NCBI GenBank assembly: GCA_027078545.1
Contig: JALWXN010000004.1
Coordinates: 192,001-256,000, forward strand
DNA: 64,000 nucleotides
Direction of reading: 5' to 3'
Source of the DNA: Nitrososphaeria archaeon
GTDB lineage: Archaea > Thermoproteota > Nitrososphaeria > Geothermarchaeales > JDFR-13
Each line of letters opens with the position of its first letter. Position 1 is the first letter of the stretch. Positions 9,952 through 56,282 of the stretch are shown here, one piece after another. A program made the translations under genes and the position numbers. The notes under the pieces were generated by a model that did no database searches, had not been told where the DNA came from, and saw only the letters and a program-made list of their open reading frames with translations.

Positions 9952-10028
9952 GGGCCCGTAGCTCAGCCTGGCGGAGCACCGGGCTCATAACCCGGGGGTC
10001 GTGGGTTCAAATCCCACCGGGCCCACCA
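9952..10028 (+). tRNA. tRNA-Ile2 (CAT, agmatidine type), CCA encoded
   Basis: Cloverleaf with CAT anticodon and GGGCCCG acceptor stem typical of archaeal Ile; a separate elongator Met lies at 56049. Confidence 0.85.
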
Positions 10029-34286: not shown

Positions 34287-34380
34287 GGGGCCGTGGTGTA
34301 GCTTGGCTAGAACCGAGTTTGGTGGCCAGCATGCGGGCCTCGGGAGCCCGTGGTCGCCGGTTCAAATCCGGCCGGCCCCA
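34287..34380 (+). tRNA. tRNA-Pro (CGG) with 19-nt D-arm intron (34311-34329, position 22/23)
   Basis: Removing the intron gives a sequence identical to tRNA-Pro(TGG) at 38434 except at the wobble base. Confidence 0.93.
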
Positions 34381-34395
34381 CCTGAAGATGCCTGG

Positions 34396-35691: not shown

Positions 35692-35824
35692 GGGGCCGTG
35701 GCCCAGCCAGGAAGGGCGGCCGACAATATCGTTGGCTGAGGCTCCAGATCCCGGTATTAGGACCCTCTGGGGATGACTGGTGGATACCGGTCGGTCGTGG
35801 GTTCAAATCCCACCGGCCCCACCA
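35692..35824 (+). tRNA. tRNA-Trp (CCA) with two introns (35723-35740 at 30/31; 35748-35785 at 37/38)
   Basis: Splicing restores GCCGG-CT-CCA-GA-CCGGT; the first intron forms a full BHB (CGGC/GCTG central helix). Confidence 0.9.
35748..35785 (+). ncRNA. Putative intron-encoded minimal box C'/D' guide (predicted Cm39 of pre-tRNA-Trp)
   Basis: Guide CCGGTATT plus AGGA-CCC-TCT-GGG-GATGAC kink-turn; N+5 lands on C39. Confidence 0.6.
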
Positions 35825-55929: not shown

Positions 55930-56048
55930 TCTAGTCAAAATTAGTCTTACACACCCCTTAAAATAGTTATGTCGCGGTGTACCGACTATGACTGTAGCTA
56001 CTCTCCAGTAATGTTAAATAGAGGGGGTATCGAATCTCTAATTTAGTT

Positions 56049-56168
56049 GCCGCCGTAGCTCAAAGGTGGAGCGCCCGGCTCATAACTAGGATGTTATGAG
56101 CTATGACCCTATGGGGGATGATGTGGGAGACCGGGAGGTCGCGGGTTCGAATCCCGCCGGCGGCACCA
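56049..56168 (+). tRNA. Elongator tRNA-Met (CAT) with 45-nt intron (56085-56129, 37/38)
   Basis: GCCGCCG acceptor stem; BHB central helix CTCA/TGGG. Confidence 0.93.
56085..56129 (+). ncRNA. Putative intron-encoded box C'/D' guide (predicted Cm34 of tRNA-Met)
   Basis: GTTATGAGC is antisense to the anticodon loop and is followed by ATGA-CCCT-AT-GGGG-GATGATG. Confidence 0.65.
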
Positions 56169-56282
56169 GAGAATTATTCCTCCTATATTTCCTGTATGCC
56201 TCTGAGGGCTCAGGGATAAGTAGATCCCTTAGTGGTCAGGCATAGTAGTGGCTTCTCAATTATGTTGTGGCTGGTAGGATTC

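What the first reader, a model, noticed from the sequence alone, without database searches (positions are those of the whole stretch)
56085..56129. tRNA-Met intron encodes a guide antisense to its own anticodon loop (predicted Cm34)
Seen: GTTATGAGC (56093-56101) is the exact reverse complement of tRNA positions 31-39 (GCTCATAAC). It is followed by D'-like ATGA, a CCC/GGG stem and C'-like GATGATG. N+5 (G56098) pairs with C34. The NNGA-CCC-loop-GGG-GAUGA module matches the one in the Trp intron. Known: Cm34 of elongator Met is guided in trans by sR-tMet in Haloferax. Inference: a shared family of miniature intron-borne guides in this lineage.
Basis: partly seen in the sequence, partly recalled or inferred. 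Interest (0 to 1): 0.7.

Follow-up and report, generated by a model that had tools for sequence, protein, structure and literature searches.

The report
Self-targeting methylation guide in tRNA-Met intron
The 45-base intron of this archaeon's elongator methionine tRNA gene holds a short antisense stretch next to a single protein-binding kink-turn, placed to direct sugar methylation of the tRNA's own wobble base before splicing; sister introns in both lysine tRNAs and in tRNA-Trp are built the same way, which would give these introns a job.

Summary
Observation confirmed. The tRNA-Met(CAU) gene is at window 56049-56168, with a 45-nt intron at 37/38 (56085-56129). GUUAUGAGC (56093-56101) is the exact complement of G31-A37 plus the first two intron bases. 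Then come one base, AUGA (D'-like), a CCC/GGG stem, and the bulge GAU followed by GA (C'-like AUGAUGU): a textbook kink-turn. The base five positions before D' pairs with C34.

Chance gives such a complement in about 1 of 1000 shuffled introns. Comparison decides it:
- 22 homologous introns in tRNA-Met, Lys(CUU) and Lys(UUU) of one Nitrososphaeria family keep the same register.
- They show compensatory changes at nt 34-36 and at the intron's first bases.
- About 20 tRNA-Met introns of Micrarchaeota, Hadesarchaea and other DPANN archaea have the same design.
- In tRNA-Trp the same module points at C39, a known box C/D target.
- Nop5, fibrillarin and L7Ae are encoded in the genome.

Most likely this is a single-kink-turn ("half") box C/D guide acting on its own precursor (confidence about 0.7). 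Methylation is unmeasured, and half guides lost site-specificity in vitro.

Prior art: the euryarchaeal Trp intron guide, and the stable C/D-like tRNA-Met intron RNA of Nanoarchaeum equitans (Randau 2012), for which the passages I read name no target. This scan had already noted the design in DPANN and Hadarchaeota (e1-5066943). New here are the Nitrososphaeria family and the Lys tRNAs.

The parts
56049..56168 (+). Elongator tRNA-Met(CAU) gene with encoded CCA; 5' exon 56049-56084, intron 56085-56129, 3' exon 56130-56168
   Evidence: ARAGORN -i; Rfam RF00005 61.2 bits. Elongator identity by elimination. The CAU tRNA at C4:509179 has A1-U72 and G29-G31 (initiator). The intronless CAU tRNA (window 9952-10028) shares its first 26 nt with a relative's tRNA-Ile(GAU), so it is tRNA-Ile2.
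56078..56086 (+). Target strand: G31 C32 U33 C34 A35 U36 A37 plus intron bases 1-2 (A, C); C34 = 56081
   Evidence: Read; pairs with the guide in the minimum-energy fold.
56087..56092 (+). Hairpin loop UAGGAU between target and guide; its length varies among relatives (3-19 nt)
56093..56101 (+). Guide GUUAUGAGC; C56101 (N+2) pairs with G31 and G56098 (N+5) pairs with C34
   Evidence: Covariation: 97% of cells paired against 38-60% when the partner is slid, and 0 of 500 shuffles reach it. In 35 sequences 396 of 432 cells are paired.
56103..56106 (+). D'-like box AUGA (CUGA in the orthologues of G001 and G004); G56105 and A56106 form the tandem sheared pairs
   Evidence: all 35 aligned sequences end this box in GA.
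56107..56116 (+). Kink-turn C-stem CCC/GGG (56107-09 with 56114-16) capped by loop UAUG; reduced to a 1-bp K-loop in some relatives
   Evidence: helix 2 is 100% paired. The first pair is C-G in 18, G-C in 14 and U-A in 2 sequences.
56117..56124 (+). Three-base bulge GAU (56117-19), sheared G56120 and A56121, then U56122 opposite U56104. In box-C numbering the C' box is AUGAUGU (56118-56124), 6 of 7 matches to RUGAUGA.
   Evidence: Sequence; AUGA is present in 35 of 35 aligned introns.
56124..56129 (+). 3' strand of the splicing (bulge-helix-bulge) motif: UGGG 56124-27 pairs with C32-A35, and A56128 G56129 with A38 (56130) form the 3' bulge. This pairing and the guide pairing cannot exist together.
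   Evidence: Explicit structure and energies; the 4-bp helix can form in 32 of 33 related introns.
35748..35785 (+). Sister element: second intron of tRNA-Trp(CCA). Guide CCGGUAU 35751-57, U, AGGA 35759-62, CCC-UCU-GGG, GAU-GA 35772-76. G35754 (N+5) pairs with C39 (35787) across the 3' splice site.
   Evidence: model R1 hit, 19.1 bits; register kept in 11 genomes of the family, with compensatory changes.

Best explanation
The intron is a minimal, single-kink-turn box C/D-type guide built into its own substrate. In the primary transcript the guide (56093-56101) folds back on the anticodon loop and the first two intron bases, giving a 9-bp hairpin directly next to a D'/C' kink-turn. L7Ae would bind the kink-turn and Nop5-fibrillarin would dock on it. 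The ribose of the nucleotide paired to the fifth guide base before D', which is C34, would then be methylated (Cm34). Afterwards the precursor must refold so that C32-A35 pair with UGGG at the intron's 3' end. That forms the bulge-helix-bulge motif, and the splicing endonuclease then removes the intron. Shown here: the anatomy, the two alternative conserved pairings, the invariant register, covariation, and presence of the three protein genes. Inferred: protein binding, methylation, action in cis rather than by the excised intron, and how one kink-turn suffices (possibly two precursors share one Nop5 dimer).
For: (1) Exact anatomy at the stated coordinates.
(2) P about 9e-4 for the complement alone.
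(3) Sixteen, then 22, homologous introns in tRNA-Met, Lys(CUU) and Lys(UUU) from 10 genomes and 5 genera of one family were found by BLAST and by a covariance model. All have an 8-11 bp guide/target helix, with N+2 paired to nt 31 and N+5 to nt 34.
(4) The guide changes with the anticodon (AUG for CAU, AAG or AGG for CUU, AAA or GAA for UUU) and with intron bases 1-4. Five pairs show double changes; 97% of cells are paired against 38-60% in slid controls.
(5) Loop, K-loop and tail lengths vary widely, but there is never an indel between guide and D'.
(6) The same design occurs in tRNA-Met of Micrarchaeota (including the complete genome NZ_CP060530.1), Hadesarchaea, Nanoarchaeota and others, with 31:N+2 switching G-C, A-U and U-A. 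The register in that set was imposed by the search pattern.
(7) Positive control: the same module in tRNA-Trp introns of 11 genomes of the family puts N+5 on C39. Position 39 of tRNA-Trp is a known intron-guided site in Euryarchaeota (for the literature).
(8) C34 of elongator tRNA-Met is a known box C/D target, reached in trans in Haloferax and Pyrococcus by a guide that also pairs with intron bases.
(9) Nop5, fibrillarin and L7Ae genes are present. No convincing trans guide for this site was found in the 92%-complete genome.
Against: No modification, RNA or binding data exist for this organism; no RNA run holds the locus. Only one kink-turn is present, with no terminal C/D pair and no second guide. 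In vitro, a single-site box C/D complex was active but lost site specificity (Hardin and Batey 2006, abstract read). The D' box here is AUGA, not CUGA, and C' is AUGAUGU. The naked RNA prefers the guide hairpin over the splicing-competent fold by about 11 kcal/mol at 37 C, so an unexplained refolding step is needed. Members of the family f1 set share ancestry, so the conserved register is partly inherited. Nm34 on archaeal tRNA-Lys is not documented in the papers I could read.
Confidence: 0.7

Rival explanations
1. Same chemistry, other topology. The excised (probably circularised) intron assembles into a stable small RNP and methylates C34 of other, still unspliced pre-tRNA-Met molecules in trans, as was concluded for the Haloferax tRNA-Trp intron.
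For: The literature favours trans action for the Trp intron. [quoted passage not shown] Guide complementarity to intron bases 1-3 only requires that the substrate be unspliced, not that it be the same molecule.
Against: The loops between target and guide are often only 3-4 nt, and the cis hairpin dominates the predicted ensemble (-57.2 kcal/mol, z = -3.3). A trans guide would therefore have to compete with it. No RNA data are available here.
Confidence: 0.15
2. The hairpin plus L7Ae-bound kink-turn is a structural or regulatory device without methylation. It would mask the anticodon or order the maturation steps, for example by holding back splicing, aminoacylation or other anticodon-loop enzymes until L7Ae leaves.
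For: The guide pairing and the splicing motif are mutually exclusive, and both are conserved. The tRNA-Cys intron of this genome has a kink-turn module with no evident guide, so kink-turns in these introns may have a more general role.
Against: This does not explain why the helix always ends exactly one base before D', so that nt 34 (or nt 39 in Trp) sits at N+5. It also does not explain why the sites coincide with known box C/D targets.
Confidence: 0.1
3. A relic of mobile or duplicated introns. The Met and Lys introns are copies of one spreading intron, and the complementarity is a leftover of how bulge-helix-bulge introns insert, with no present function.
For: The tRNA-Met and tRNA-Lys genes align at 79% through the intron. 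Intron-rich tRNA sets and intron transposition are known in thermophilic archaea (literature listed).
Against: The guide has been retargeted to each anticodon, and compensatory changes are maintained across genera and phyla. The splicing motif uses a different intron segment.
Confidence: 0.04
4. Chance complementarity in a short intron.
For: Short complements of 7 nt or more occur in 1.4% of shuffled introns.
Against: A 9-nt match has P about 9e-4, and it recurs with covariation in more than 35 introns.
Confidence: 0.01

Closest known systems
Box C/D guide in the intron of euryarchaeal pre-tRNA-Trp (Haloferax volcanii; Pyrococcus sR50; Clouet-d'Orval 2001, Singh 2004, as cited in PMC2584109, PMC4090602 and PMC7994747)
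   Same: It lies in the 37/38 intron and pairs with the anticodon arm of its own precursor across an exon-intron border. It follows the N+5 rule, and the guide pairing competes with the splicing motif. The Trp intron of this genome aims at position 39, one of the two known Trp sites.
   Different: The known Trp intron is a complete sRNA with C/D and C'/D' motifs and two guides (nt 34 and 39) in 60-105 nt. Here there is one kink-turn and one guide in 38-55 nt, and the hosts are tRNA-Met and both tRNA-Lys as well. Reviews call the Trp case unique and state that the Met guide is always outside the intron.
Stable C/D-like RNA from the 66-nt intron of Nanoarchaeum equitans elongator tRNA-Met (Randau 2012, PMC3491384)
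   Same: Same host tRNA and intron site. One box C-like and one box D motif were noted, and the RNA was proposed as a possible methylation guide.
   Different: In the passages I read that paper names no target and no self-complementarity. The intron is longer and has an extra GC hairpin. I did not compare the sequences. No Lys or Trp counterparts and no Nitrososphaeria are mentioned.
Trans-acting guides for Cm34 of elongator tRNA-Met: sR-tMet (Haloferax) and sR49 (Pyrococcus); human SNORD97/SCARNA97
   Same: Same target nucleotide. In archaea the guide also pairs with intron bases, so it acts before splicing.
   Different: Those are separate genes with two box pairs. Here the guide sits inside the substrate and has a single box pair.
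Engineered half-mer (single-site) box C/D RNPs (Hardin and Batey 2006, PMC1635284)
   Same: One kink-turn plus one guide, the same minimal parts list.
   Different: These are artificial constructs and were reported as active but not site-specific. The natural elements keep a strict N+5 register, which suggests that something restores the ruler, such as the hairpin cap, a second precursor or the tRNA body.

Membership tests
Archaeal box C/D sRNA (methylation guide) | Terminal box C (RUGAUGA) and box D (CUGA) forming a kink-turn closed by the RNA's 5' and 3' ends | tested here: not met
   There is no C box upstream of the guide and no D box between C' and the 3' splice site in any of the 16 family introns. 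Rfam gives no C/D family at or near its threshold (sR36 8.4 bits against 55).
Archaeal box C/D sRNA (methylation guide) | Internal D' and C' boxes forming a K-turn or K-loop | tested here: met
   AUGA / CCC-UAUG-GGG / GAU-GA-UGU at 56103-56124. Three relatives have the canonical CUGA and 5-nt K-loops. GA and AUGA are invariant in 35 of 35 sequences, and the C-stem covaries.
Archaeal box C/D sRNA (methylation guide) | Guide of about 8-12 nt immediately upstream of D or D', with the target nucleotide paired to the fifth base | tested here: met
   9 bp here and 8-11 bp in relatives; N+5 = nt 34 in all Met and Lys introns and = nt 39 in the Trp introns.
Archaeal box C/D sRNA (methylation guide) | Bipartite, near-symmetric architecture with two guides of about 12 nt | tested here: not met
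   A single guide and a single box pair.
Archaeal box C/D sRNA (methylation guide) | Partner proteins L7Ae, Nop5 and fibrillarin encoded in the genome | tested here: met
   PF01248 101.7 bits, PF01798 217 bits and PF01269 252 bits, with Nop5 and fibrillarin adjacent.
Archaeal box C/D sRNA (methylation guide) | RNP assembly and 2'-O-methylation of the predicted site | not testable with these tools
   No RNA or modification data; only DNA runs from hydrothermal-vent metagenomes hold the locus.
Intron-encoded pre-tRNA guide (tRNA-Trp type) | Guide located in the anticodon-loop intron and complementary to its own precursor across an exon-intron junction | tested here: met
   The guide pairs with nt 31-37 plus intron bases 1-2, and relatives track the intron bases rather than the 3' exon.
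Intron-encoded pre-tRNA guide (tRNA-Trp type) | Guide conformer and bulge-helix-bulge conformer are alternatives | tested here: met
   -57.2 against -45.7 kcal/mol; nt 32-35 are used in both conformers, and the BHB helix can form in 32 of 33 introns.
Kink-turn (L7Ae-binding motif) | Watson-Crick C-stem, 3-nt bulge, then tandem sheared G.A and A.G pairs | tested here: met
   C56107-09/G56114-16; bulge G56117 A56118 U56119; G56120.A56106 and A56121.G56105; then U.U. Established by sequence inspection and conservation only.
N. equitans tRNA-Met intron C/D-like RNA | Accumulates as a stable RNA after splicing | not testable with these tools
   No transcriptome for this organism.

The most novel reading that the evidence does not exclude
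Archaea widely use a natural single-kink-turn box C/D system that works inside the precursor it modifies. Anticodon-loop introns of tRNA-Met, tRNA-Lys and tRNA-Trp (and others in DPANN) persist because each carries the guide for its own wobble or position-39 ribose methylation. The guide module can move between tRNA genes and be retargeted. The minimal RNP either works with one kink-turn or joins two precursors on one Nop5 dimer.
Probability: 0.55. Interest if true: 0.75.

Novelty: new variant of a known kind. Interest (0 to 1): 0.62.

Why it matters
Why archaeal tRNA genes keep introns at position 37/38 is an old question. The only accepted functional case is the tRNA-Trp intron, which reviews call unique. 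Here the same logic appears in a stripped-down form in four tRNAs of one genome and, for tRNA-Met, across distant archaeal phyla. If the methylation is real, three things follow:
- These introns have a job: to carry the specificity for wobble Nm34.
- A box C/D enzyme can be programmed by one kink-turn and about 9 nt of guide. That bears on how the N+5 ruler works and on the design of minimal programmable RNA methyltransferases.
- Guide modules can hop between tRNA genes and be retargeted, which links intron mobility to the evolution of modification.

The idea is directly testable in vitro with three recombinant proteins and a 120-nt transcript.

Tried and rejected
- RNA evidence: the one run search found only DNA metagenomes (hydrothermal vent) holding the locus. 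Two sponge metatranscriptomes held 6% of the words, too little to mean anything, so no reads were laid.
- Rfam at a permissive threshold gives only tRNA for 56040-56180. The best C/D family (sR36) scores 8.4 bits against a cut-off of 55.
- A supposed tRNA-Leu(CAA) example in G013 is not in a tRNA and was dropped.
- Exact pattern GCTCATA..TATGAGC in 401 genomes of the class: apart from the four genomes of this genus, all hits were coding-sequence noise.
- The scan of all species genomes was cut at 120 rows and was mostly bacterial noise. About 20 true archaeal tRNA-Met hits were extracted, so it gives presence but not a census. Its pattern fixed the guide-to-D' spacing, so that set cannot test the register.
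- Search for a separate trans guide for C34 in the own genome: 20 weak hits, none with a box C or C' in place except the intron itself. My first version of this search was unfiltered and useless.
- I could not find elongator tRNA-Met in G003, G006, G008, G009 or G010 by BLAST with the spliced sequence. The best hits were tRNA-Asn and the Ile2-type CAU tRNA. Whether those genomes lack the Met guide or the gene is unassembled or diverged stays open.
- tRNA-Ile(GAU) was not found in the own genome; a relative's copy was used instead.
- The papers of Joardar 2011 and Clouet-d'Orval 2001 are not held.

Full report
**1. What is there**

The window holds a tRNA gene at 56049-56168 (+). ARAGORN with intron detection calls it tRNA-Met(CAU) with a 45-nt intron after position 37. 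Rfam's tRNA model covers it at 61.2 bits.

Reading the bases gives this layout:
- 5' exon 56049-56084, ending C32 U33 C34 A35 U36 A37.
- Intron 56085-56129.
- 3' exon from A38 (56130), with an encoded CCA.

The intron reads A C / UAGGAU / GUUAUGAGC / U / AUGA / CCC UAUG GGG / GAU GA UGU GGG AG. GUUAUGAGC (56093-56101) is the exact complement of G31-A37 plus intron bases 1-2 (56078-56086). G56098, five bases before AUGA, pairs with C34 (56081).

The segment 56103-56124 has all the sequence features of a kink-turn:
- A 3-bp C-G stem capped by a 4-nt loop.
- A 3-nt bulge (GAU).
- Tandem G.A and A.G pairs (G56120.A56106, A56121.G56105).
- A U.U pair after them.

In box-C numbering the C' box is AUGAUGU, 6 of 7 matches to RUGAUGA.

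The minimum-energy fold of the whole precursor contains the guide/anticodon hairpin (-57.2 kcal/mol, z = -3.3 against shuffles).

**2. Which CAU tRNA is it?**

The genome has three CAU tRNAs.
- One has A1-U72 and G29-G31, so it is the initiator.
- The intronless one (window 9952-10028) shares its first 26 nt exactly with tRNA-Ile(GAU) of a genome of the same family, so it is the agmatidine-type tRNA-Ile2.
- By elimination, the intron-bearing gene is the elongator tRNA-Met.

**3. More than chance**

A perfect complement of 9 nt or more covering C34 arose in 9e-4 of 200,000 shuffles of the intron.

A BLAST search of 61 related genomes with the gene returned orthologues. Unexpectedly, it also returned a paralogue in the same genome at 79% identity through the intron. 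That paralogue is tRNA-Lys(CUU) at C4:115540-115671. A further one is tRNA-Lys(UUU) at C4:292081-292233, which also has a second intron upstream.

I parsed 16 such introns: Met from 4 genomes, Lys(CUU) from 5 and Lys(UUU) from 7. All share the order target / loop / guide / one base / NNGA / stem-loop or 5-nt K-loop / GAUGA / tail.
- The helix is 8-11 bp.
- The guide's last base always pairs with nt 31, and N+5 always pairs with nt 34.
- The guide follows the anticodon: AUG for CAU, AAG or AGG for CUU, AAA or GAA for UUU.
- The guide follows the first intron bases: AC/GU, AUU/AAU, AUC/GAU, CCU/GGG, UCC/GGA, ACCA/UGGU and others.
- Because it tracks the intron bases and not A38-C39, the partner is the unspliced precursor.
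- Three relatives have the canonical CUGA as D'.

On an 11-sequence alignment, 97% of cells form standard pairs, against 38-60% when the 3' partner is slid by 1-3 columns. Five pairs show changes on both sides, and none of 500 shuffles reaches the observed covariation.

Lengths vary freely in the loop (3-19 nt), the K-loop (5-16 nt) and the tail. There is never an indel between guide and D'.

**4. Distribution**

A covariance model built from these introns (R1) gave the following.
- It finds members in 10 of 17 genomes of the order, all in the window's family.
- It finds none in 103 genomes of 11 other families of the class. This means 'not found in those searched', not 'absent'.
- Within the family, Lys(UUU) introns occur in 5 genera and Lys(CUU) in 3. 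The Met intron was seen only in the window's genus (4 of 5 genomes).
- A complete genome of the family (G008) has an intronless tRNA-Lys(CUU).

Outside the class, a pattern scan of one genome per prokaryotic species gave mostly noise. Filtering for tRNA context left about 20 elongator-type tRNA-Met genes with the same design. They come from Micrarchaeota (including the complete genome of Ca. Micrarchaeum sp. A_DKE), a Hadesarchaea MAG, Nanoarchaeota, Nanohaloarchaea and unclassified archaea.

In these genes nt 31 is A or U, and the guide base opposite it is U or A. Over 35 sequences, 396 of 432 helix cells pair, against 38-49% in slid controls. The search pattern fixed the spacing in this second set, so only the family f1 set tests the register.

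**5. A positive control in the same window**

The second intron of tRNA-Trp (window 35748-35785) carries the same module, and R1 picks it up. Its guide CCGGUAU pairs with AU|A38-C39-C-G-G across the 3' splice site. G35754 is at N+5 opposite C39.

In 11 genomes of the family the Trp guide keeps N+5 on C39 while both strands change together:
- The intron end changes AU to GC with the guide changing AU to GC.
- The stem changes CCGG to CCCG or CCCGA with the guide changing CCGG to CGGG or UCGGG.

Position 39 of tRNA-Trp is one of the two sites guided by the Trp intron in Euryarchaeota. The module therefore lands on a site already known to be a box C/D target.

**6. Two conserved, mutually exclusive folds**

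Bases 32-35 can also pair with UGGG at 56124-56127. This gives the 4-bp helix of a bulge-helix-bulge motif with bulges U36-A37-A and A-G-A38. That helix can form in 32 of 33 related introns, and it too follows the anticodon.

The cloverleaf-plus-BHB fold is about 11 kcal/mol less stable than the guide fold in the naked RNA. This is the same situation described for the Haloferax pre-tRNA-Trp.

**7. Mechanism proposed**

L7Ae binds the kink-turn and Nop5-fibrillarin docks. C34 in the guide duplex is 2'-O-methylated. The RNP then leaves or is remodelled, the BHB forms, and the intron is cut out.

The three protein genes are present. I found no credible separate guide for this site in the genome.

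The very short loops and the dominant hairpin favour action in cis. Action in trans by the excised intron, as argued for Haloferax Trp, cannot be excluded.

The weak point is the single kink-turn. A single-site C/D complex made in vitro was active but not site-specific. Something must therefore replace the second box pair as a ruler: the hairpin cap, the tRNA body, or a second precursor on the other half of the Nop5 dimer. This part is inference.

**8. Known or new**

- A 2008 survey stated that the Trp guide is always intronic and the Met guide always outside the intron.
- A 2014 review calls the Trp intron a unique example.
- Randau (2012) reported that the 66-nt intron of N. equitans elongator tRNA-Met is a stable, abundant RNA with one C-like and one D box, and suggested a guide role. 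The passages I read name no target. That is the closest prior art.
- I found no paper on such guides in tRNA-Lys or in Nitrososphaeria among those searchable.
- This scan had already noted the Met design in DPANN and Hadarchaeota, and similar mini-guides in other tRNAs. I had reached the DPANN and Hadesarchaea hits independently before reading that note.

**9. Verdict**

The element works like a box C/D guide. It fails two defining features of the family: it has no terminal C/D pair and is not bipartite. I therefore file it as a new variant, a natural half guide embedded in its substrate, and not as a standard member. Methylation is unproven.

Noticed in passing
own genome C4:115540-115671 (-) and C4:292081-292233 (+), outside the window (loci L076, L077): tRNA-Lys(CUU) and tRNA-Lys(UUU) carry introns homologous to the Met intron. 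Their guides, GGGUAGGAGC and GGUGAAAGC, put N+5 on C34 and U34. ARAGORN miscalls the second gene as tRNA-Leu because of an extra upstream intron.
   Followed up: yes
L253 (G010) and L254 (G009), tRNA-Trp introns: Besides the C39 guide, these two Trp introns contain UCUGGAGC downstream of C'. It is fully complementary to G31-A38 of the anticodon loop, but no recognisable D box follows it. It may be a second (nt 34) guide or an extended splicing helix.
   Followed up: no
own genome C4:492763-492779 (-) (locus L078): The tRNA-Cys(GCA) intron has a GA-CC-loop-GG-GAUGA kink-turn-like module, but I could not find a target for the flanking bases.
   Followed up: partly
own genome C4:425279-425296 (+) and C4:707644-707661 (+): Two further GACCCC-loop-GGGG-GAUGA modules lie outside any tRNA called by ARAGORN. 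They could be ordinary C/D sRNAs or unrecognised intron-bearing tRNAs.
   Followed up: no
window 34287-34382 (+) and whole genome: The tRNA set is very intron-rich: about 30 of 45 ARAGORN calls have introns, several have two, and several are mis-typed (Trp called Ile, Lys called Leu). ARAGORN also reports an odd tRNA-??? right after tRNA-Gly at 34287-34382. No tRNA-Ile(GAU) was found in this 92%-complete assembly.
   Followed up: partly
L239 (G008:C1:1574357-1577421): In a single-contig genome of the same family, tRNA-Lys(CUU) is intronless and the covariance model finds no member. Its Trp intron still has the C39 guide (L255). Loss and gain of these introns within the family could be dated.
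   Followed up: partly
own genome C1:12505-12520 (+): The kink-turn scan also hit the C'/D' region of a free-standing C/D sRNA whose guide GGCUCGAAAGG matches the tRNA-Glu(UUC) anticodon loop. The genome thus uses both trans and intron-borne guides for nt 34.
   Followed up: no
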